A stretch of 64,000 nt of DNA from a virus (lineage: Duplodnaviria > Caudoviricetes), in IMG/VR virus record IMGVR_UViG_3300028602_000007, positions 32,001 through 96,000 of that record; one strand, 5' to 3'. The number at the start of each line of letters is the position of its first letter. Position 1 is the stretch's first letter. The notes under the pieces are model-generated. The model saw only the letters and a program-made list of their open reading frames with translations. It made no database searches and was not told the DNA's origin. A program made the translations under genes and the position numbers. This document shows positions 27 to 49,474 of the stretch, one piece after another.

Positions 27-797
27 ATGAGTCCACACGTTTTAACTTTTTCCAAATTTATATTAGAAAATAGAGAAAATGATATACATACAACATTAGA
101 TAAAGAATATGAAGATCAATTATCTGACTTTAATTATGAATCTGAAATATTATCATTAATTGAAAAACTTGAACGTTATTGGATTAAAATGGAGAAAGAT
201 TATTTGTGGAATAGAGAATATCGATACTCTTTAAAATTTCCGCATTTTGCATTATACGCAAAACTAGATTATCCAGATTTAGAAAAAATTTCAAAAATTA
301 TAAAGGATGATGAAGCTGATGATGATGAATTATTAGATATATGGTATAAATGGATAATGTATCAACGTGCAATATTTATAGATGATCTTGATTATTCTTG
401 GATAAAGCATGTCGGTTGGGGCGGAAATTCTGGTGGATGGATCCTACTTACACCAAACATTAATTATGATGATGTAGTAAATGATATTACTGAGTTATTA
501 GAGTTGTATATTTCAGAAAAAAATGAAATTAAAAATAACGTATCAAATTGGGAATATATTATGAACAATTTAGAAGACCTAGATTATATTCAGTTAAGTG
601 AAATTGGCTTAATTGAAATGCCAGAAGAGATAATTAATCTTAAAAAATCAGCAGATATTGTAATTAAAATAACACAAGAAAGTTTACAAGAAGCAAAAAA
701 TATTGAAGCAGATTTAGTTGAAATTAATAATCGACTTATTAAATTTAAACAAAATGCAGATTCTTATTTTTATAGTTATTTAGAAGAGGAATATTAA
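27..797 (+). CDS. hypothetical acidic protein with N-terminal capsid-targeting-like motif (possible internal head protein)
   Basis: 256-aa ORF; N-terminus LTFSKFILE resembles the T4 CTS (MKTYQEFIAE). Confidence 0.5.
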   Translation: MSPHVLTFSKFILENRENDIHTTLDKEYEDQLSDFNYESEILSLIEKLERYWIKMEKDYLWNREYRYSLKFPHFALYAKLDYPDLEKISKIIKDDEADDDELLDIWYKWIMYQRAIFIDDLDYSWIKHVGWGGNSGGWILLTPNINYDDVVNDITELLELYISEKNEIKNNVSNWEYIMNNLEDLDYIQLSEIGLIEMPEEIINLKKSADIVIKITQESLQEAKNIEADLVEINNRLIKFKQNADSYFYSYLEEEY

Positions 798-3406: not shown

Positions 3407-3952
3407 ATGAAAACAAATATTAATATTTTTGATTTTGATGATACTTTATTTAGAGTACCGAGTTTTCTTTGTGAAACTGCAAAGAACCGTACACCATATC
3501 AATGGTATGATGATCCAGCTTCATTAAAAGAACCAAATCTGCCTAAGCCAATTAAGAATATTGTTGAAAAAACATGGAATAAATCTGGCAATGATAAAAA
3601 TTATTTAATTACACATCGAGTAAAAGCATGTGAACTTGAAATTAATAACTTATTAAAATCAGTAAATTGCGAATTCGAAGAACGCTTTTTTCTAGGAAGA
3701 GTTGATAATAAAGTGATGAAAGTCCTTGAAATTTTAGATAAAAATCCTCAATGCAAAAAATTAACAATATATGAAGATTCATTATTCGAAATAATGAATT
3801 ATGCTGCGATGCTAGACGATGAATTATCTAATGAAATTGAAATAATTTTTGTTTTTGTAGATAAACGTAGAATTATTTCATTTCCAATAAGTGTTGCAAT
3901 TAAATTAACTGAATATAATATTGATATTGAAAAATTATTTGTTGTTGTATGA
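3407..3952 (+). CDS. HAD-superfamily phosphatase (resembles 'Swiss Army Knife' RNA-repair HAD family)
   Basis: IFDFDDTLF (DxD motif I), LITHR (II), K (III), IYEDS (IV). Confidence 0.75.
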   Translation: MKTNINIFDFDDTLFRVPSFLCETAKNRTPYQWYDDPASLKEPNLPKPIKNIVEKTWNKSGNDKNYLITHRVKACELEINNLLKSVNCEFEERFFLGRVDNKVMKVLEILDKNPQCKKLTIYEDSLFEIMNYAAMLDDELSNEIEIIFVFVDKRRIISFPISVAIKLTEYNIDIEKLFVVV

Positions 3953-4563
3953 TATTATTCATAGAAGGAAGTCGTGCTGTTGGAAAAACTTATTTAATCA
4001 ATAAGTTTTTTGAACAAGTTAAATTAACTAATATTGAATATTATAAATTTTATTTTGCAAATCATATTAAATTACTAAATTTACAAAATCTTGATAATTC
4101 TTCAGCATTACACTATTTTAGTTTGGGAAATATTATGACAATATTAGAAATGAATTTGCGAAAAGAATATAAAGATAAAATTTGGATTTTTGATCGTGCT
4201 ATTATTTCTGCATATGCTTGGGCTATTTTAAGAAATCGATTATCATTTGAAACGGCAAAGTCTGAATATTTAAAACTATTAAGTAGTAATTTATATTCAA
4301 ATTGTAAAACGCTGGTAATTAAAACAAAAATAGATCGTTCAACAATTGAATCTACTAGAAATAAAGATGTATTTGATGGACTTCATACAACACTTAATGA
4401 ATACACAAAATTATCTGAATTTGTTGAAATTGGATTTCAATTTCTAAATGATAAAAATAAAAATAATAAGATCGTTTCAATTACAAATAATTTTGACGAA
4501 GAATCAACTATTAAATTCATTGAAGCAGGAACACATCTTTTATCGTTACCGACTAATAAATAA
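3949..4563 (+). CDS. P-loop nucleotide kinase (dNMP/thymidylate-kinase-like fold)
   Basis: IEGSRAVGKT Walker A and IFDR motif; 4-nt ATGA overlap with the HAD gene. Confidence 0.75.
   Translation: MILFIEGSRAVGKTYLINKFFEQVKLTNIEYYKFYFANHIKLLNLQNLDNSSALHYFSLGNIMTILEMNLRKEYKDKIWIFDRAIISAYAWAILRNRLSFETAKSEYLKLLSSNLYSNCKTLVIKTKIDRSTIESTRNKDVFDGLHTTLNEYTKLSEFVEIGFQFLNDKNKNNKIVSITNNFDEESTIKFIEAGTHLLSLPTNK
4555..4562 (+). promoter_or_regulatory. T4-like late promoter (AATAAATA)
   Basis: Same motif recurs before structural genes; gp55 is encoded in the window. Confidence 0.6.
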
Positions 4564-4600
4564 TAAAAATTATTATGTGTAAATATACACAAATCTGTAC

Positions 4601-6520
4601 ATGGCAGGATTATCACATCTAAAAGATATATTAGAAAAAAAGGGAGTTGACTTCATTAATAATTTACTTAATAATCAAGTTATTATTAATGAAAAAATGG
4701 ATGGTGCTTTTTTTGGAATAAAAAAAGATACAACTACTAATAAAATTCGATTTTTTAAAAGAAATTCTGAATTTACTTATGTGGATCGAGTATTAAGTAA
4801 ATTTTTTGAAAAAGCAGTATCTTATTTTGAAAAAAATAATGATAGATTTTTAAAAGAAATTCCACCAAATTATTTTTTTGGAATGGAATATTTTTCAAAT
4901 AAAAAATCTCAAAGTATTGCATATGATAAGATTCCGAAAAATAATTTAATTTTAAGTTACATTAATATATTAGATGAAACGGGAAACATCGTAAGAACAA
5001 TACAAACAAAGGAAGAACTTAATGAATGGGCAGATATTTTAGGAATAGAACGGCCTCCTATTATATTTCAAGGAAAACTATCAGATGAACAAAAAAAGAA
5101 AATTAATGAATTTATTCATACTCCATTTAATGAATTATTAGAAACTTTTAAAACAACATCATTTACTCGTTATATAATTTCAATATTAAATCCAAATTTA
5201 GAAAAAACATTTTTAAATGATTCATTAGATAAAGATATTGAAGGCGTAGTTTTTAGGTTTTATTCAAAAGATACAAAAGAAGATCCAGTTTTTGTAGCAA
5301 AACTAATAGATCCAACATTTCAAGAATTTGCAAAAAAAAGAGCAACTAATCAAAACACAAATAAAAGTGATGATTATGTTTGGATAATTGTTATTGATTT
5401 AATGAATTTTATAGAACTGTATTCATTAAGTGAATTAAGAAATATTAAATTAAATGGAAACACTTATGAAGAACGATATATTTCATTAGTAAATGAATTG
5501 TATTTAAAATTCATAAAAGAATTTGGCCAAAAGTATAGGGACTTAGATATTCAAGTTCCAGATTTTTTACAAAAAGAAGAGTTTAGCGTAAATCTAAAAT
5601 TATTAAAAGATAAAAATGTTGAATCAATGATTGAATCTAACTCTAATTTTAAAGAAATCTATAGAATTTTCTTAAATATGTTTAGAAAAAAGAAAATTCG
5701 AGTAAATTCATCATTCTTTACAAAAGAAATGAAAGTTAATTTGAATGATCAAATTAGTAAAATTAGTAAAATTATTATGGGAGATTCAGTATATGAAAGT
5801 TATTTTCCAACATTTAATGAATTTGTTGGAGAAGATCGAGATCCTGGATATTTCGAAACCTTTAAAGAACTTGAAAATCGAAAAACTAAACCAGTTAATT
5901 TAATAATTTCAGACTTTCAACCAATACACATTGGACATATTAAGTCAGCTGAAAGTTTATTTGATGAGAATGGTTTACCGTGTTTATTAGTATTAGTTCA
6001 TAATGGACGAATTACTAAAATGAAACCTTTTAAAAAGGAAACAATTGTAAATGGTTTACAAAAATTACAAAGTACTCACCCAAGTTTTATAACTGGATAC
6101 GTTGCAGTTCCTAATGGAGAAGTTGAATCATTATTAAAAACAATAAAACCAGACTATGAACCTAATATTATTGCTGCAACTAAGAGTAGAATTAGAGATA
6201 TTGCTTTACAATTAGAATTAGCAAAAAAGCGTAGTAGAAATTTAAATTTCAAAAATAATGTTAGATTAATGGAAATGCCGCAAGCTGCTATAAAAGACAT
6301 CATTATGGACACTATTAGAAATAATGATTATCGTACTTTTAAATCAGCGGCTCCATCAGAAATTCATTCAGATTTCATAAACATGACAAATGATGTAATG
6401 GAACAAATGAATTCTAATATTCAAATAAATGAGGGAAAGAAACTTAATGAACAGATTGATTCTAACATAAAAAAAGATGATATTCAATTAGCAAAATTCG
6501 ATTTAGATAAACTAAAATAA
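4601..6520 (+). CDS. fusion of ATP-dependent (RNA) ligase-like domain and HIGH-motif nucleotidyltransferase domain
   Basis: Ligase motifs EKMDG (I), FGMEY (III), EGVVFR (IV), AKL (V) in the N-terminal half; FQPIHIGH in the C-terminal half. Confidence 0.75.
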   Translation: MAGLSHLKDILEKKGVDFINNLLNNQVIINEKMDGAFFGIKKDTTTNKIRFFKRNSEFTYVDRVLSKFFEKAVSYFEKNNDRFLKEIPPNYFFGMEYFSNKKSQSIAYDKIPKNNLILSYINILDETGNIVRTIQTKEELNEWADILGIERPPIIFQGKLSDEQKKKINEFIHTPFNELLETFKTTSFTRYIISILNPNLEKTFLNDSLDKDIEGVVFRFYSKDTKEDPVFVAKLIDPTFQEFAKKRATNQNTNKSDDYVWIIVIDLMNFIELYSLSELRNIKLNGNTYEERYISLVNELYLKFIKEFGQKYRDLDIQVPDFLQKEEFSVNLKLLKDKNVESMIESNSNFKEIYRIFLNMFRKKKIRVNSSFFTKEMKVNLNDQISKISKIIMGDSVYESYFPTFNEFVGEDRDPGYFETFKELENRKTKPVNLIISDFQPIHIGHIKSAESLFDENGLPCLLVLVHNGRITKMKPFKKETIVNGLQKLQSTHPSFITGYVAVPNGEVESLLKTIKPDYEPNIIAATKSRIRDIALQLELAKKRSRNLNFKNNVRLMEMPQAAIKDIIMDTIRNNDYRTFKSAAPSEIHSDFINMTNDVMEQMNSNIQINEGKKLNEQIDSNIKKDDIQLAKFDLDKLK

Positions 6521-6551
6521 AAAAAAACCTCAATTAAATTGAGGTTTTTTT
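6521..6551. terminator. bidirectional intrinsic terminator
   Basis: A-run, ACCTCAATT/AATTGAGGT inverted repeat, T-run, between convergent genes. Confidence 0.85.
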
Positions 6552-6820: not shown

Positions 6821-8386
6821 TTAAAATAAGGTTGTAAATTCACCATTTATAAAATTAATATGTTGAGTTTTACCGTCTTCATGAATTATTACGTGCGATT
6901 GTAACCAACTACTTGGACCAATATTATAATTAACCCTAAGCTTAGTTGACGTTCCTACAGCTAATGCACCGTCCTTTCTACCTGGAGAATGATAGTGTCC
7001 TGTTATAATTTTTGTATTTAAATTACGATATTGATTTAGTGAACCATATGATCCATTTTGACCAATATCGCCATGCTGAGCAACTTCCCAATCTTTAATT
7101 AAATAACTTTCACTTCGATTTAAAGTAATAAAATTTGGAAATCTTTCATTAATTAAATATGGAATAACTCCATTTTTAGCTTTTCCGCTTAAAATTAATG
7201 TTGAATATTCCATATATTCTAATGCATTTTTAATAGTTGCACCTTTTCGCCAGTCAGTAGTTTGTAACCACTTATCTAAAAAGTCATCATGGTTTCCACG
7301 AACAATTATTGTATTATAATCAGCACTATCAAAATCTTCTAATCCTTCTAACATACATTCAACATCATCCTTTAAACTATTAGAACCTGATAATTCGCGT
7401 TCATATTGAATAAACGGATTATTCATATCATGATGATTTATTGATAATCCATCAAACACATCATGTAATACTACATTTTTAGGTTTTATTACCTCAAACA
7501 GTTTTAATGTTTTATGAATAACCGTTGGATCGTGTTGACCAAAATGAATATCTCCAAGAACAATACCTGCAATCGAATTAAGTTTAATTATCTTACTTTC
7601 TCCGTTTATATATTCAAGTCTAGTATTTAAATCACTAAAGCTCCCATCATTAGTTGCAGTTACTTGTCTTACAAAAAAAGTTGATTTATCTTTAATTTCA
7701 ACAATAACAAATCCTAAAGTATGATGAAACTCTCCTTTTTTGCCGGCTTTCGAATCTGTATAATTACTTAATGTACAGGCACCAGTTGTAACCATTACCT
7801 TTGGCAAAACTCCCTCTAATACTGGAATTGTTTCCATTTGAACTTTTGGCGATCCAAAAACACACGAATCTACACCAGATAAAGCCATCATTCCAGACAT
7901 TGGATTAATTGCAGTAGGCTGAATTTTAATATCAGACATAATCCAAATATGTTTATGTGGATTATGTCTATTTGCATCTAAGTATTTTTCAATACGATTA
8001 TCCCAAGTATTATAATCATTATCTGTAAATACCGAAGTTGGATTTTTATAACGACCAGCAATTACATGGATATCTGCATTAATATGTTCAGCATATTTTT
8101 CTAAATTAGAAACAAATTTTTCATGTATAGGCGTATCATTTTGGGCCCAAGTAATTAAAAATCTTTTCTTTTTACTAAGTTTACGTTCTTTAGCTTTAAT
8201 AAATTGCGGAGACTCAATTGTTGCTTTTTCACTGATTCCTAATTTAGATATCCATCTCCTAACAGTACGTTCTGATTTATCTAAATACATGCTAAGTCTT
8301 TCCATTCGTTCATCCCAACTAAGATCTAATCTATAAATTGAAATAATCTCTGAAATGTTGGTAGGTGTTAAATCTTCAAAATTCAT
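6821..8386 (-). CDS. T5 A1-like protein: N-terminal HTH plus calcineurin-like metallophosphoesterase
   Basis: SERTVRRW HTH; ITWAQNDT; GDIHFG, LHDVFDG, RGNHDD, QHGD, GHYHSP metallophosphoesterase motifs. Confidence 0.75.
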   Translation of the reverse strand: MNFEDLTPTNISEIISIYRLDLSWDERMERLSMYLDKSERTVRRWISKLGISEKATIESPQFIKAKERKLSKKKRFLITWAQNDTPIHEKFVSNLEKYAEHINADIHVIAGRYKNPTSVFTDNDYNTWDNRIEKYLDANRHNPHKHIWIMSDIKIQPTAINPMSGMMALSGVDSCVFGSPKVQMETIPVLEGVLPKVMVTTGACTLSNYTDSKAGKKGEFHHTLGFVIVEIKDKSTFFVRQVTATNDGSFSDLNTRLEYINGESKIIKLNSIAGIVLGDIHFGQHDPTVIHKTLKLFEVIKPKNVVLHDVFDGLSINHHDMNNPFIQYERELSGSNSLKDDVECMLEGLEDFDSADYNTIIVRGNHDDFLDKWLQTTDWRKGATIKNALEYMEYSTLILSGKAKNGVIPYLINERFPNFITLNRSESYLIKDWEVAQHGDIGQNGSYGSLNQYRNLNTKIITGHYHSPGRKDGALAVGTSTKLRVNYNIGPSSWLQSHVIIHEDGKTQHINFINGEFTTLF

Positions 8387-28269: not shown

Positions 28270-28692
28270 ATGGGTAAAAATGTTGTTATGTCATATGATG
28301 AATTTCTATTAGAAAAGAAAACTAATCAAGAACTAAGTAATTCTACTCCAAGCGGAAGTAAAATTTCTAATTCAGTAAATGACAATATGGCTAAACTGCC
28401 AGAGAAAAAAGGATCTACTCCAAATAAACGAACAGATTCTAATATGGCTAAAATGCCAGAGAAAAAAGGAAGTATTCCTAAAAAAAGAGTAAATCAAGGT
28501 ACAACGACTTTGCCTACTAAAAAAGGATCTGCTCTAACTAAAGTAATTAATCAAAATACCGCAGATCTTCCAAAAGGAGGAAGTTCATTAAGTAAAACAG
28601 TTGATCCAAAAATGGCAAAAATGCTAATTGGCAAAGTTACTCCAAATGCAGCAGTTAATAAAGCATATACTGGAATGAAAAATAAAAAATAA
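28270..28692 (+). CDS. basic repetitive protein with CTS-like N-terminus (probable internal head protein)
   Basis: MSYDEFLLE followed by ~20-aa repeats NMAKLPEKKGS; late promoter 28225-28232. Confidence 0.6.
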   Translation: MGKNVVMSYDEFLLEKKTNQELSNSTPSGSKISNSVNDNMAKLPEKKGSTPNKRTDSNMAKMPEKKGSIPKKRVNQGTTTLPTKKGSALTKVINQNTADLPKGGSSLSKTVDPKMAKMLIGKVTPNAAVNKAYTGMKNKK

Positions 28693-29220: not shown

Positions 29221-29628
29221 ATGAAAAAACTTATATTTGATTATAATAGTTTTGTAAATGAAATGTTTAGGTCTGATTTAAAACCTAGAATTAAAAAAGA
29301 TTTTATAGACCCTAATAAAGTTTATGATTATACTATCGGAAATGCAAAACTTGATCAATTAGTTTCAAATTATAATTTTAAACCAGAAAATCAAAGAATT
29401 AATATTTTACCTAATGATACTGTTCGATTTTATATAACTGAACCTGGTAAATTTACTCATATTAAAAATATAATAAAGAAAAAAATAAACGATGACATTA
29501 AAAAATATAAAATAGAAGATCCAAAAATCGAAATTTATTATAATGTCATTAATGGAATATCAGATAATCCAGAATTATCTCAAAAAGTTGAAATTGTTGG
29601 AGTATTAGCTGCAACTTTTATTGATTAA
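29221..29628 (+). CDS. hypothetical protein with CTS-like N-terminus
   Basis: FDYNSFVNE. Confidence 0.55.
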   Translation: MKKLIFDYNSFVNEMFRSDLKPRIKKDFIDPNKVYDYTIGNAKLDQLVSNYNFKPENQRINILPNDTVRFYITEPGKFTHIKNIIKKKINDDIKKYKIEDPKIEIYYNVINGISDNPELSQKVEIVGVLAATFID

Positions 29629-29645
29629 TAAAATATAATAATATT

Positions 29646-30104
29646 ATGGAAAAAACAATTATTACTGATTATAATACTTTTATAAAAGAAAGATATAATC
29701 GTTCAATTAATGAAAGCTTTGAAGCTGACAATATTGAAAATGACAATACCGAAAACACAGAAGATCTTACAGATGATAATTTAAATAATGAAGAACAATC
29801 CGACTTTGATTATATTAGTAAAGAAGAATTAATCAAGAAAGCAGAAGAATCAGAAGAACCTATCATTATTGTAACAATTACCGAAGATGAGTTAGATGAA
29901 TTTATAAATGAAGTAGACGATGAAATAAAAGATCGTTTTGAAATATTTAAATTTGGCGAACCTACTGAAAATGAGGAAGAAGCTAAAACTGAAAATGATT
30001 TAATGGCTGATAATATTGAAGATAGTAACGAAGAGCTTGAATATTCAAAAACTATTCAAAGTCGATATGGTGCTAACGAATCTGATTTTAATAATGAAGA
30101 TTAA
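29646..30104 (+). CDS. highly acidic protein with CTS-like N-terminus (core-like)
   Basis: TDYNTFIKE...SINE followed by E/D-rich body. Confidence 0.55.
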   Translation: MEKTIITDYNTFIKERYNRSINESFEADNIENDNTENTEDLTDDNLNNEEQSDFDYISKEELIKKAEESEEPIIIVTITEDELDEFINEVDDEIKDRFEIFKFGEPTENEEEAKTENDLMADNIEDSNEELEYSKTIQSRYGANESDFNNED

Positions 30105-48480: not shown

Positions 48481-49143
48481 TTATGATAAATTTTCCTGAT
48501 TTTCTTGATTCTCAATATTATCATCTTCACTTTTATCAATTTCATCTTCGTTTGAAGATTCTCCTCTAAGTTTAGCAAAAATTTCTTCTAATACTCGAAT
48601 AGTATCAGTCGAATCATTGTGTAATATTCCAGTACCTCCAGCATTTGTCCATTTTTCAATATTACTTTCCTTATCATCAATTAAAATATCATTTTTTCCT
48701 TTAACGAATAAATCTTTTTTACTTGATAAAATTACTCTTAATTCTGGACGCTCTTCGTGCTCTTCTGGAGTAGTTACTGCTTTTCGCTGACTAAACCCTA
48801 AATTTAATTTAATCCATTGCAATTTACCATCTTTTGAATAATCACTTCTGCTTGGAGAAGATAAAATATATGGTTTATATCTATCTAAATAATCCCATAA
48901 CTCTCGACCATCTTTTGTCCAAGGCAACCTTTTCCAAAAATATTCTTTACGTTTATCAATTATTTTCCAAATTGAATGCTTTCCGAATTTATCTTCATAT
49001 TCTTTTGGAGTTCTATGATGTTTGTTTGCTTTTAACCGTTTAAATCCACGTTTAAAATCAGTTAAAACTCCATCCATATCACAAAAAATACGAATTGGAG
49101 TTTCAGGCTGTAATTGTTCATTAATGAATTCATTAAAATTCAT
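48481..49143 (-). CDS. 5'(3')-deoxyribonucleotidase-like HAD phosphatase with CTS-like N-terminus
   Basis: FCDMDGVLTDF, ILSSP, K, LIDD; probable start MNFNEFINE at 49143. Confidence 0.85.
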   Translation of the reverse strand: MNFNEFINEQLQPETPIRIFCDMDGVLTDFKRGFKRLKANKHHRTPKEYEDKFGKHSIWKIIDKRKEYFWKRLPWTKDGRELWDYLDRYKPYILSSPSRSDYSKDGKLQWIKLNLGFSQRKAVTTPEEHEERPELRVILSSKKDLFVKGKNDILIDDKESNIEKWTNAGGTGILHNDSTDTIRVLEEIFAKLRGESSNEDEIDKSEDDNIENQENQENLS

Positions 49144-49159
49144 TATTGTGTTTTTTAAA

Positions 49160-49474
49160 TTAGTCATATGTTTTAAAGTCAAATGATTTGTTTATAGAAT
49201 TATCTATAATGCCAATCAAATCATTTGCCATCACTGCATGATATAAAGTATCATTTAATTCAAGATCAAGTCCTGAATATTTTAAATACAAAACTTTATC
49301 ACCAATTTTAAATGGTGAATTCTGTAACAAATGACCAACTGCAACTATGGTTCCACTATTAGGTCTTTGTCTAGTTTCTGGTGGTAAAATTATACCAGTT
49401 TCAGTTTCTTTTTCAACTTCATCTGGTTTAATTAAAATTCTTTCATATAACGGGATAAATCCTGGATTTTCCAT
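49160..49474 (-). CDS. groES: co-chaperonin GroES
   Basis: PLYERILIK, TETGIILP, GTIVAVG, GDKVLY.KYSG. Confidence 0.92.
   Translation of the reverse strand: MENPGFIPLYERILIKPDEVEKETETGIILPPETRQRPNSGTIVAVGHLLQNSPFKIGDKVLYLKYSGLDLELNDTLYHAVMANDLIGIIDNSINKSFDFKTYD

What the first reader, a model, noticed from the sequence alone, without database searches (positions are those of the whole stretch)
3407..6520. HAD phosphatase + P-loop kinase + RNA-ligase/nucleotidyltransferase fusion: candidate RNA end-healing and sealing (anti-defence) module
Seen: three adjacent co-oriented genes ending at one terminator. They encode a DxD HAD phosphatase, a Walker-A kinase overlapping it by 4 nt, and a 639-aa protein with ligase motifs (EKMDG, FGMEY, EGVVFR, AKL) joined to a HIGH-type nucleotidyltransferase domain (FQPIHIGH). 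Known: T4 repairs PrrC-cleaved tRNA with a 5'-kinase/3'-phosphatase (Pnkp) plus Rnl1. Inference: this is a split, divergent heal-and-seal set with an extra adenylyl/cytidylyl-transferase of unknown role, possibly NAD/cofactor regeneration or junction modification. Caveats: the kinase looks dNMP-kinase-like and could instead serve modified-nucleotide synthesis, and the usual GRFQP is SDFQP here, so that domain may be altered.
Basis: partly seen in the sequence, partly recalled or inferred. Interest (0 to 1): 0.72.

Follow-up and report, generated by a model that had tools for sequence, protein, structure and literature searches.

The report
Phage RNA-ligase/NMNAT fusion with phosphatase and kinase
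An uncultured jumbo phage has three genes in a row: an RNA-repair-type phosphatase, a thymidylate-kinase-like kinase, and an RNA-ligase fold fused to an NAD-synthesis-type adenylyltransferase; I found this fusion described in no paper, it is most likely a variant RNA-mending kit, and no activity has been tested.

Summary
There are three co-oriented ORFs (3407-3952, 3949-4563, 4601-6520). Every quoted motif is present, the first two genes overlap by 4 nt, and a hairpin terminator lies at 6521-6551.

- **Gene 1** belongs to the HAD_SAK_1 ("Swiss-army-knife" RNA-repair) phosphatase assemblage. This rests on a transitive profile search, not on a direct Pfam hit.
- **Gene 2** has a thymidylate-kinase fold (Z 15.3). 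No test placed it in the polynucleotide-kinase family.
- **Gene 3** joins an RNA-ligase nucleotidyltransferase, a helical domain, and an archaeal-NMNAT-like HIGH domain (Z 15.3) in which the usual G-R is S-D/E.

At least 242 homologues of the fusion exist. All are unnamed and come from uncultured phages.

The trio recurs in about 50 loci, but always inside one collinear uvsW-uvsY block. Deeper relatives keep the fusion without the phosphatase and kinase, and two of them lack the ligase lysine. Complete relatives also carry a separate DNA ligase and canonical Rnl1/Rnl2 genes.

The linker between the two halves carries an invariant motif resembling T4's capsid-targeting tag. Cyanophage homologues of the HIGH domain carry the same tag at their N-terminus, and one was found in virions by mass spectrometry.

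Best reading is a variant RNA end-healing and sealing set, possibly virion-delivered (about 0.45). The role of the NMNAT-like domain is open. This scan has flagged the same architecture before on other DNA (for example e1-5256809).

The parts
3407..3952 (+). P0001, 181 aa: stand-alone HAD phosphatase of the HAD_SAK_1 assemblage. Its conserved residues are D9, D11, T69, K102 and E123-D124, which fit HAD motifs I-IV.
   Evidence: Translation. Invariant residues in 14 orthologues. The profile search recovers PF10307-positive proteins. The protein atlas also points to HAD_SAK_1.
3949..4563 (+). P0002, 204 aa: P-loop kinase with a thymidylate-kinase fold. Conserved features are Walker A at G7-T14, an invariant E30 (EYYKFYF), D82-R83 and a lid at R137/K139. 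It overlaps the HAD gene by 4 nt.
   Evidence: AlphaFold model pLDDT 86. Fold matches from Foldseek and VIA-align. Weak thymidylate-kinase and deoxynucleoside-kinase sequence matches.
4601..5311 (+). P0003 residues 1-237: RNA-ligase-type covalent nucleotidyltransferase domain. It has motif I K32, motif III E96, motif IV E214-R219 and motif V K234.
   Evidence: Pfam PF09414 E 1.8e-8, residues 26-235. Foldseek matches to Trl1-LIG, T4 Rnl2 and Rnl1. Residue survey of 121 sequences.
5312..5794 (+). P0003 residues 238-398: conserved all-helical middle domain, of the kind that follows the nucleotidyltransferase domain in Rnl1, Rnl2 and Trl1.
   Evidence: Secondary structure of the model. Foldseek alignments to full-length Rnl2, Trl1-LIG and Rnl1 run well past the nucleotidyltransferase domain. 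High sequence conservation.
5795..5857 (+). P0003 residues 399-419: invariant linker ENYFPTFxEFVG...PGYFE with low model confidence. It contains FNEFVGE, which matches the capsid-targeting-like tag found at the N-termini of other proteins of this phage.
   Evidence: Invariant in 121 of 121 sequences. pLDDT below 50. Motif enrichment: 21 hits against 6.1 expected overall, and 5 N-terminal hits against 0.4 expected. The same tag sits at the N-terminus of cyanophage homologues of the HIGH domain.
5888..6412 (+). P0003 residues 430-604: HIGH-superfamily adenylyltransferase domain, closest to archaeal NMNAT. The motif is SDFQPIHIGH instead of GRxQPxHxGH.
   Evidence: VIA-align Z 15.2-15.3, rmsd 2.4-2.6 A over 150-155 residues. 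Foldseek matches. Profile alignment to the Methanobacterium and Methanococcus NMNATs. Pfam PF01467 E 1.6e-3, below the curated cut-off.
6521..6551 (.). Hairpin terminator with an A-run and a T-run, between convergent genes.

Best explanation
The three genes form a variant RNA end-healing and sealing set of a T4-related jumbo phage.

Inferred steps:
1. The HAD_SAK_1 phosphatase removes 3' (or 2') phosphates from cleaved RNA.
2. The kinase phosphorylates 5'-OH ends. It is translationally coupled to the phosphatase, has a thymidylate-kinase or nucleoside-kinase fold, and keeps an invariant Glu where nucleoside kinases place their general base.
3. The ligase half of the 639-aa protein seals the ends through lysyl-AMP at K32.

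The fused NMNAT-like half performs a second adenylyl transfer whose substrate is unknown. It may resynthesise NAD+, or it may act on the adenylylated RNA end.

The tag in the linker suggests the protein may be packed into the head and delivered with the DNA.

What is shown: the folds, the motifs, family membership of the phosphatase, and conservation. What is inferred: every substrate, every activity, and packaging.
For: - **Phosphatase.** A profile of 14 orthologues found 427 proteins in 1.8 billion. I scanned 22 multidomain hits, and 20 of them carry PF10307 HAD_SAK_1. Partner domains include CCA-adding or poly(A) polymerase heads, a tRNA-ligase CPD domain, an ADP-ribosyltransferase and an RRM. 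Residues fitting the four HAD motifs are invariant.
- **Ligase.** PF09414 scores above its cut-off. The best folds are Trl1-LIG at 2e-7 and T4 Rnl2 at 3e-7. K32 is present in 115 of 119 sequences, and K234 and R219 are invariant.
- **Gene arrangement.** The phosphatase and kinase genes overlap by 4 nt, a Pnkp-like pairing. The trio is kept in two sub-clades in which the HAD protein is only 26-51% identical.
- **Independent kinase link.** In distant relative L043, a PNK-type AAA_33 kinase (E 1e-11) sits directly after the fusion gene.
- **Not the replicative ligase.** Complete relatives have a separate ATP-dependent DNA ligase.
- **Published precedent.** Iyer et al. 2021 (PMC7824862) describe jumbo-phage RNA repair as ligase plus kinase plus HAD phosphatase, with the Swiss-army-knife HAD usually stand-alone.
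- **RNA theme in the same genome.** The record has a weak TROVE match (E 4.9e-6, 21.6 bits, below the curated cut-off).
- **Packaging.** Motif enrichment. Tagged cyanophage homologues. One of them, S-SZBM1_140, was detected in virions by LC-MS (PMC9146016).
Against: - The kinase's nearest folds are all thymidylate kinases (Z 13.3-15.3). Its only sequence hints are thymidylate kinase, deoxynucleoside kinase and NadR-type families. JGI names some orthologues nicotinamide riboside kinase.
- P0001 alone has no Pfam hit. Its orthologues hit 5'-nucleotidase and acid phosphatase B about as weakly as HAD_SAK_1.
- Synteny is uninformative, because the whole neighbourhood is collinear.
- LR756500 (462 kb, whole record searched) has the fusion but neither the phosphatase nor the kinase.
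- L002 and L043 lack the ligase lysine.
- Relatives already encode a PNK-like kinase abutting Rnl1, plus Rnl2, so a third repair set needs a separate rationale.
- Motif V has one lysine (AKL) instead of the usual two.
- No Tpt1 and no RtcB were found in relatives.
Confidence: 0.45

Rival explanations
1. The set is a nucleotide or NAD salvage group rather than RNA repair. The HAD enzyme would be a 5'-nucleotidase, as in the T5 dNMPase or e(P4)-type NMN phosphatases. The kinase would be a dNMP, nucleoside or nicotinamide-riboside kinase. The HIGH domain would be a working NMNAT. Kinase plus HIGH domain would then form a split NadR-like route from nicotinamide riboside to NMN to NAD+, which could counter NAD-depleting defences or feed DNA synthesis. 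The ligase half would be an unrelated passenger.
For: - The kinase has a thymidylate-kinase fold. The NadR ribosylnicotinamide-kinase domain is among the Foldseek matches, with TM 0.62.
- The atlas neighbours of the kinase carry AAA_28, dNK and thymidylate-kinase families. JGI labels some orthologues nicotinamide riboside kinase.
- The HIGH domain is closest to NMNAT, NadD and NadM.
- HAD orthologues weakly hit 5'-nucleotidase and Acid_phosphat_B, and the atlas lists the T5 dNMPase family.
- Complete relatives have no canonical thymidylate kinase.
- Phage NMNAT fusions to a kinase or a Nudix domain are known (PMC7824862).
Against: - A nucleotidase coupled to a kinase acting on the same substrate would be a futile cycle.
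- The HAD profile leads to HAD_SAK_1 proteins fused to RNA-end enzymes, not to nucleotidases.
- The Arg that archaeal NMNATs place in the GR motif is Asp or Glu in all 121 sequences. The first His of HxGH is lost in 20 of the 121 sequences.
- The fully complete relatives have no Nampt.
- This reading leaves a fusion to a ligase, conserved in more than 240 proteins, unexplained.
Confidence: 0.25
2. The fusion protein is a core DNA-transaction factor working with UvsW and UvsY. It might seal nicks that have RNA 3' ends in hybrid duplexes during recombination-dependent replication. The phosphatase and kinase would be later, clade-specific additions that clean DNA or RNA ends.
For: - The fusion sits beside uvsW in the main clade, in L002 and in L069, even where the phosphatase and kinase are absent.
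- Its conservation (50-70% identity) is like that of UvsW.
Against: - A separate T4-type DNA ligase is present in complete relatives.
- Position next to uvsW may only reflect conserved gene order.
- This reading does not explain the NMNAT-like domain or the capsid-tag-like linker.
Confidence: 0.1
3. The protein is mainly a packaged virion component whose enzyme folds are partly degenerate. It would act as a scaffold or as injected cargo with a non-catalytic role. From my own knowledge: T4 gp63 combines RNA ligase activity with a separate tail-fibre attachment function.
For: - The lysine is lost in L002, L043 and 4 of 119 close relatives. The HxGH motif has degenerated in one sub-clade.
- The linker tag is more conserved than the catalytic motifs.
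- A homologue of the HIGH domain was found in virions (PMC9146016).
Against: - In the window's clade the catalytic residues are nearly invariant: K32 97%, K234 100%, H446 98%.
- The T4 tag as I recall it is N-terminal, and this one is internal.
- No virion proteome exists for this clade.
Confidence: 0.1

Closest known systems
T4 Pnkp plus Rnl1/Rnl2 tRNA repair (heal and seal)
   Same: It uses the same three chemistries in adjacent genes: a HAD-type phosphatase with a DxD motif, a P-loop kinase and a lysine-AMP RNA ligase. The setting is also phage.
   Different: The phosphatase and kinase are separate proteins from other families (HAD_SAK_1 and a thymidylate-kinase fold, not the Pnkp domains). 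The ligase shows no significant pairwise similarity to the Rnl1 and Rnl2 genes of its own relatives. It also carries an extra NMNAT-like domain.
Fungal/plant tRNA ligase Trl1 (ligase, kinase and CPD domains)
   Same: Trl1-LIG is the best Foldseek match of the ligase half (9r3w, E 2e-7). Both have a nucleotidyltransferase domain followed by a helical domain. Relatives of the HAD family are fused to the Trl1 CPD domain (P0386).
   Different: No CPD domain and no Tpt1 were found in this clade. The kinase is not fused to the ligase and has another fold type.
Swiss-army-knife HAD phosphatases of RNA-repair systems (Pfam PF10307; Burroughs and Aravind 2016, as cited in PMC7824862)
   Same: P0001's family profile retrieves PF10307 proteins. 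The stand-alone form matches what Iyer et al. describe for jumbo phages.
   Different: P0001 itself scores below Pfam's detection limit. Its pairing with a thymidylate-kinase-fold kinase does not appear in the paper I read (PMC7824862); the 2016 source paper was not held.
NMN adenylyltransferases: archaeal NMNAT, NadM, NadR, and the phage NMNAT fusions to Nudix or kinase domains described in PMC7824862
   Same: The fold matches over nearly the whole chain (Z 15.3), including the FQPxHxGH core and a PF..E motif. A kinase gene lies next door, as in NadR.
   Different: The G-R of the first motif is S-D/E in all 121 sequences. The Pfam score is below the cut-off. The domain is fused to an RNA ligase, an architecture I found in no paper. 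I found no close stand-alone form in the metagenome protein collection. More distant stand-alone homologues do exist in isolated phages (YB07 gp056).
Cyanophage 'cytidylyltransferase' (syn9 gp184, S-SZBM1_140)
   Same: The HIGH domains are homologous: HMM E 4e-9 to S-SZBM1_140, hhalign E 1.2e-4 to syn9 gp184, and tblastn hits in 424 isolated-phage records. The same short tag precedes the domain.
   Different: In cyanophages it is a separate gene and the tag is N-terminal. Here it is fused behind a ligase, so the tag is internal. My tests did not show that the upstream cyanophage gene is ligase-like.

Membership tests
HAD superfamily, HAD_SAK_1 (PF10307) | Four HAD motifs: DxDxT, a Ser or Thr, a Lys, and an acidic pair | tested here: met
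   D9, D11, T13, T69, K102 and E123-D124 are invariant or nearly so in 14 orthologues.
HAD superfamily, HAD_SAK_1 (PF10307) | Significant match to the family profile | tested here: inconclusive
   P0001 alone has no Pfam hit. Four of 14 orthologues hit PF10307, best E 0.0015. The link is transitive: the orthologue profile retrieves proteins that score well above the PF10307 cut-off.
HAD superfamily, HAD_SAK_1 (PF10307) | Phosphatase activity on RNA 3' or 2' phosphate ends | not testable with these tools
   This needs an enzyme assay.
Polynucleotide 5'-kinase (T4 Pnkp / AAA_33 type) | P-loop, plus sequence membership in the PNK/AAA_33 family | tested here: not met
   The Walker A motif is present. 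AAA_33 appears among the hits of none of the 14 orthologues at E up to 1, whereas the kinases of L043 and G001 hit it at 1e-11.
Polynucleotide 5'-kinase (T4 Pnkp / AAA_33 type) | Structural similarity to solved polynucleotide kinases | tested here: inconclusive
   No polynucleotide kinase appears in the top 50 of Foldseek or VIA-align. A family that is not listed is not excluded.
Thymidylate kinase (PF02223) | Fold | tested here: met
   Forty-nine of the top 50 VIA-align entries are thymidylate kinases, with Z 13.3-15.3 and rmsd 3.2-4.5 A over about 180 residues.
Thymidylate kinase (PF02223) | Family profile match and a dTMP-binding signature after strand 2 | tested here: not met
   PF02223 gave no hit. 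Only weak matches appeared to phrog_761, phrog_2107 and TIGR00041. The segment after strand 2 is an invariant EYYKFYFA, not the REPGGT-type motif that I recall from memory.
ATP-dependent RNA ligase (PF09414, covalent nucleotidyltransferases) | Profile match above the curated cut-off, and the fold | tested here: met
   35.1 bits against a cut-off of 27. Foldseek matches Trl1, Rnl2, Rnl3 and Rnl1.
ATP-dependent RNA ligase (PF09414, covalent nucleotidyltransferases) | Motif I lysine nucleophile, and motifs III, IV and V | tested here: met
   K32, E96, E214-R219 and K234 are present. K32 is K in 115 of 119 close relatives, but N in L002 and D in L043. Motif V has one lysine only.
ATP-dependent RNA ligase (PF09414, covalent nucleotidyltransferases) | Self-adenylylation and RNA joining | not testable with these tools
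   This needs an enzyme assay.
NMN adenylyltransferase, archaeal type (HIGH superfamily, PF01467) | Fold and the HxGH motif | tested here: met
   Z 15.2-15.3 to the Methanobacterium and Methanococcus NMNATs. H443-I-G-H446 is present. H446 is kept in 118 of 121 sequences.
NMN adenylyltransferase, archaeal type (HIGH superfamily, PF01467) | The G-R of the GRxQPxHxGH motif (Arg11 of the Methanobacterium enzyme) | tested here: not met
   The alignment places S437 and D438 at these positions. Position 437 is S in 121 of 121 sequences, and position 438 is D or E in 121 of 121. The L002 relative keeps GR.
NMN adenylyltransferase, archaeal type (HIGH superfamily, PF01467) | Pfam curated cut-off | tested here: not met
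   19.1 bits against a cut-off of 21 for P0003. The L002 homologue passes with 31.8 bits.
NMN adenylyltransferase, archaeal type (HIGH superfamily, PF01467) | NAD+ synthesis from NMN and ATP | not testable with these tools
   This needs an enzyme assay.
T4-type capsid-targeting sequence | Short N-terminal tag ending in (I/L/V)xE, cleaved by the prohead protease | tested here: inconclusive
   The motif FNEFVGE is present and invariant, but it is internal at residues 405-411. It is N-terminal in homologues syn9 gp184 and S-SZBM1_140. Cleavage and packaging are untested. The T4 consensus is from memory and from note e1-5937993.

The most novel reading that the evidence does not exclude
The NMNAT-like domain acts on RNA 5' ends rather than on free NMN, in cis with the ligase domain. 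One version: it adenylylates a 5'-phosphate RNA end using ATP, or reverses that step with pyrophosphate, so that sealing can proceed without the ligase lysine. Another version: it adds or removes an NMN moiety, giving post-transcriptional NAD capping or decapping. It would be the first RNA-directed enzyme of the HIGH/NMNAT fold, possibly delivered from the virion.
Probability: 0.15. Interest if true: 0.85.

Novelty: new variant of a known kind. Interest (0 to 1): 0.6.

Why it matters
**Known background.** RNA-repair kits made of a phosphatase, a kinase and a ligase are known in phages, so the general logic here is not new.

**What I found described in no paper:**
- An RNA-ligase fold fused to an NMNAT-type adenylyltransferase. 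At least 242 homologues exist across uncultured freshwater and marine jumbo phages.
- A thymidylate-kinase-fold enzyme in the slot where a polynucleotide kinase is expected.

**Link to an open question.** A 2021 review (PMC8131947) states that no post-transcriptional NAD-capping enzyme is known and that E. coli NadD and NadR showed no activity on RNA. An NMNAT fold tethered to an RNA-end-binding ligase is a natural candidate to test.

**Possible virion delivery.** Homologues of the HIGH domain are the widespread cyanophage gene annotated 'cytidylyltransferase', and one of them has been seen in virions. If the tag reading holds, this would point to enzymes injected with the DNA to act on RNA or cofactors before any phage gene is expressed.

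Tried and rejected
- **Replicative DNA ligase: rejected.** Complete relatives carry a separate PF01068 ligase and no NAD-dependent ligase.
- **Trl1-type pathway needing Tpt1: no support.** Tpt1 was absent in five relatives.
- **Complete Nampt-NMNAT NAD route: not general.** Nampt was found in only one of five relatives.
- **RtcB: absent**.
- **Isolated phages.** DNA search and tblastn of the three proteins found only six unannotated huge-phage records for P0003, none for P0002 and one weak hit for P0001.
- **PDB by sequence.** Nothing for P0003 or the HAD profile. The kinase profile gave only a deoxynucleoside kinase at E 0.08.
- **Close stand-alone relatives of the SD-type HIGH domain.** Only seven short proteins on short contigs, probably fragments.
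- **Kinase family outside the clade.** None was found.
- **Fusions of the HAD family to a kinase or ligase like these.** None among 150 profile hits.
- **C-terminal extension of the roughly 1000-aa forms.** It looks like a PD-(D/E)xK nuclease by eye but gave no Pfam hit.
- **Mutual exclusion of lysine loss and H446 loss.** It was observed, but the numbers are too small to mean anything.
- **Cyanophage genes upstream of the 'cytidylyltransferase'.** I could not show that they are ligase-like.
- **Tools and papers unavailable.** The Burroughs and Aravind 2016 paper was not held.

Full report
**Setting.** The window is bases 32001-96000 of a 120,754-bp IMG/VR virus record. CheckV estimates the record at 47% complete. 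GC content is about 25%. T4-type genes lie next to the finding: a UvsW helicase at 799-2397 and a weak UvsY-like match at 2397-2837, both on the minus strand. Related records of 252-271 kb are 93-100% complete. This is therefore a jumbo phage of an uncultured clade. Three related contigs were binned into Bacteroidota, Saprospirales or unclassified bacterial MAGs, which is only a weak hint at the host.

**Observation.** The three ORFs, the 4-nt overlap and all quoted motifs are present. A strong hairpin with flanking A and T runs lies at 6521-6551, directly after the stop codon and between convergent genes.

**Gene 1 (P0001).**
- Alone it hits nothing in Pfam or the PDB.
- Fourteen orthologues taken from related loci keep D9, D11, T69, K102 and E123-D124, which fit the four HAD motifs.
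- Singly, these orthologues give only weak hits, spread evenly over 5'-nucleotidase, acid phosphatase B and HAD_SAK_1.
- A profile of the 14 sequences, scored against 1.8 billion representatives, found 427 proteins.
- I scanned 22 multidomain hits, and 20 of them carry PF10307 HAD_SAK_1, many far above the cut-off.
- The partner domains act on RNA ends or are conflict-related: a CCA-adding or poly(A) polymerase head in four, the fungal tRNA-ligase CPD domain, an ART-PolyVal domain and an RRM.
- The protein atlas points independently to HAD_SAK_1.
- Iyer et al. 2021 describe this family as the usually stand-alone phosphatase of jumbo-phage RNA repair (PMC7824862).
- I accept P0001 as a divergent member of this assemblage. 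Its substrate is inferred.

**Gene 2 (P0002).**
- The AlphaFold model is good (pLDDT 86).
- Foldseek ranks thymidylate kinases, a deoxyadenosine kinase, adenylate kinases and the NadR kinase domain highest.
- In VIA-align, 49 of the top 50 entries are thymidylate kinases, with Z 13.3-15.3.
- Sequence hints agree but are weak: a deoxynucleoside kinase at E 0.08, thymidylate-kinase PHROGs and TIGR00041, and AAA_28.
- It lacks the thymidylate-kinase profile match. After strand 2 it has an invariant EYYKFYFA segment, whose Glu aligns with the Glu of the EPV segment of deoxynucleoside kinases, which I take (from memory) to be their catalytic base.
- That Glu fits a kinase acting on a hydroxyl group (a nucleoside or a polynucleotide 5'-OH) better than one acting on a monophosphate. 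This is inference only.

**Gene 3 (P0003).**
- Pfam gives RNA_ligase at residues 26-235 (E 1.8e-8) and a sub-threshold CTP_transf_like match at 439-534.
- The model (pLDDT 73) matches Trl1-LIG, T4 Rnl2, Rnl3 and Rnl1 in the N-terminal half.
- Residues 430-604 match archaeal NMNAT at Z 15.2-15.3 and rmsd 2.4-2.6 A over nearly the whole chain. NadD follows at Z 13.6-14.8, then NadM at 13.5-13.9, PPAT at 12.3-13.5 and NadR at 12.3-13.1.
- A family profile aligns LLISDFQPIHKGH with LLVGRMQPFHRGH of the Methanobacterium enzyme. The Gly-Arg pair is therefore Ser-Asp/Glu here.
- In 121 relatives, S437, Q440, P441, K234 and R219 are invariant. K32 is K in 115, N in 2 and R in 2. H446 is kept in 118. 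H443 is replaced in 20 of the 121 sequences (Thr in 18), mostly within one sub-clade.

**Distribution and context.**
- At least 242 homologues of 600-1040 aa exist. All are unnamed, and they sit on contigs of up to 293 kb.
- The gene order uvsW, uvsY, an unknown gene, HAD, kinase, fusion recurs in 40 of 42 loci. It recurs again in a more distant sub-clade, where a roughly 200-aa gene is inserted before the fusion.
- Because the whole neighbourhood is collinear, this shows shared ancestry rather than selection for linkage.
- Deeper relatives (L002 = LR756500, L043, L069) keep the fusion, and L002 and L069 keep it near uvsW, but they have no HAD or kinase of these families nearby. The complete 462-kb LR756500 record has none at all.
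- In L043 a PNK-type AAA_33 kinase follows the fusion directly. This is an independent link between the ligase and a kinase.
- In L002 and L043 the motif I lysine is N and D respectively, while H446 is kept.
- Complete relatives carry a separate ATP-dependent DNA ligase.
- They also carry an AAA_33 kinase, which abuts an Rnl1 gene in the one relative whose locus I inspected (G002), plus Rnl2-like genes. P0003 shows no significant pairwise similarity to either of these ligases.
- P0003 is therefore a third, divergent ligase lineage and not the phage's only repair ligase.

**The linker.**
- Residues 399-419 (ENYFPTFNEFVGE...PGYFE) are invariant in 121 of 121 sequences, yet the model is poor there.
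- The pattern [FY]xx[FY][ILVM]x[ED] occurs 21 times in the window's 59 ORFs, against 6.1 +/- 2.6 in shuffles. Five of these lie in the first 20 residues, against 0.4 expected.
- The GR-type HIGH domain of L002 finds 424 isolated-phage records, mostly T4-like cyanophages, where the gene is annotated 'cytidylyltransferase'.
- syn9 gp184 begins MKKFSAFLSEAE and S-SZBM1_140 begins MRFRQFIIEA. Both align to the HIGH domain, with hhalign E 1.2e-4 and HMM E 4e-9 respectively.
- S-SZBM1_140 and its neighbour _139 were detected in purified virions by LC-MS (PMC9146016).
- P0003 therefore looks like a ligase gene fused in front of a tagged HIGH-domain gene. The protein may be packed into the head and perhaps cut at the tag.
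- Neither packaging nor cleavage has been shown for this clade. The T4 tag consensus comes from memory and from note e1-5937993.

**Verdict.**
- The best-supported reading is a variant RNA end-healing and sealing set (confidence 0.45).
- Nucleotide or NAD salvage is the main rival (0.25).
- A DNA-transaction role (0.1) and a mainly structural or packaged role (0.1) follow.
- The NMNAT-like domain is the real unknown. Its fusion to an RNA-end enzyme, its altered phosphate-binding motif, and the survival of the family without the ligase lysine leave one more reading open: that it works on adenylylated or capped RNA ends. That would bear on the open question of post-transcriptional NAD capping (PMC8131947).
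- The scan has met this architecture before on other DNA (e1-5256809, e1-5611152 and several notes on marine T4-like phages). My results agree with those follow-ups. They add the HAD_SAK_1 assignment, the lysine losses, the canonical ligases in relatives, and the link to the virion proteome.

Noticed in passing
window 27-797, 28270-28692, 29221-29628, 29646-30104, 48481-49167 (N-termini); 5813-5833 (internal, in P0003): A short motif [FY]xx[FY][ILVM]x[ED] is strongly enriched at protein N-termini in this phage: 5 occurrences against 0.4 expected. It resembles the T4 capsid-targeting tag. It also starts the extra ORF that lies between the kinase and the fusion in sub-clade L060-L067 and in L040, and it starts the AAA_33 kinase of L043.
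   Followed up: partly
L115 (syn9 gp183-gp185) and L118 (S-SZBM1_139 to _142): T4-like cyanophages carry a conserved block in which a tagged HIGH-domain 'cytidylyltransferase' is flanked by unnamed genes. S-SZBM1_141 starts MAKNTHLEHLED and has KWDG at residue 50, which recalls the N-terminus of P0003. HMM and hhalign found no significant similarity.
   Followed up: partly
P0016, P0029, P0056 (970-1040-aa relatives), alignment A1 columns about 790-1070: Many relatives carry a C-terminal extension of about 350 aa with a GD...(I/L)E(V/I)K pattern that looks like a PD-(D/E)xK nuclease. Pfam found nothing there. An earlier follow-up (e1-5611152) reads it as a nuclease.
   Followed up: partly
window 6821-8386 (-): A 521-aa protein with a weak calcineurin-like phosphoesterase match (E 6e-4). 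It is the most conserved gene of the neighbourhood (65-77% identity across the clade), and its function is not assigned.
   Followed up: no
L002 4105-4692 (LR756500.1): In this huge phage a Methyltransf_11 gene lies about 1.3 kb upstream of the fusion, with one ORF between them. This could be a Hen1-like end-protecting methylase or could be unrelated.
   Followed up: no
L046 9951-10889 (G001): A ribose-phosphate pyrophosphokinase-like gene (PRPP synthetase) lies about 3 kb from the stand-alone AAA_33 kinase in a complete relative. ClpP and SLT genes lie in the same stretch.
   Followed up: no
own record G000:C1:3152-3388, upstream of the window: A weak TROVE (Ro60-type) match, E 4.9e-6 and 21.6 bits, below the curated cut-off, in a 557-aa frame. 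The only relative with a match is G004.
   Followed up: partly
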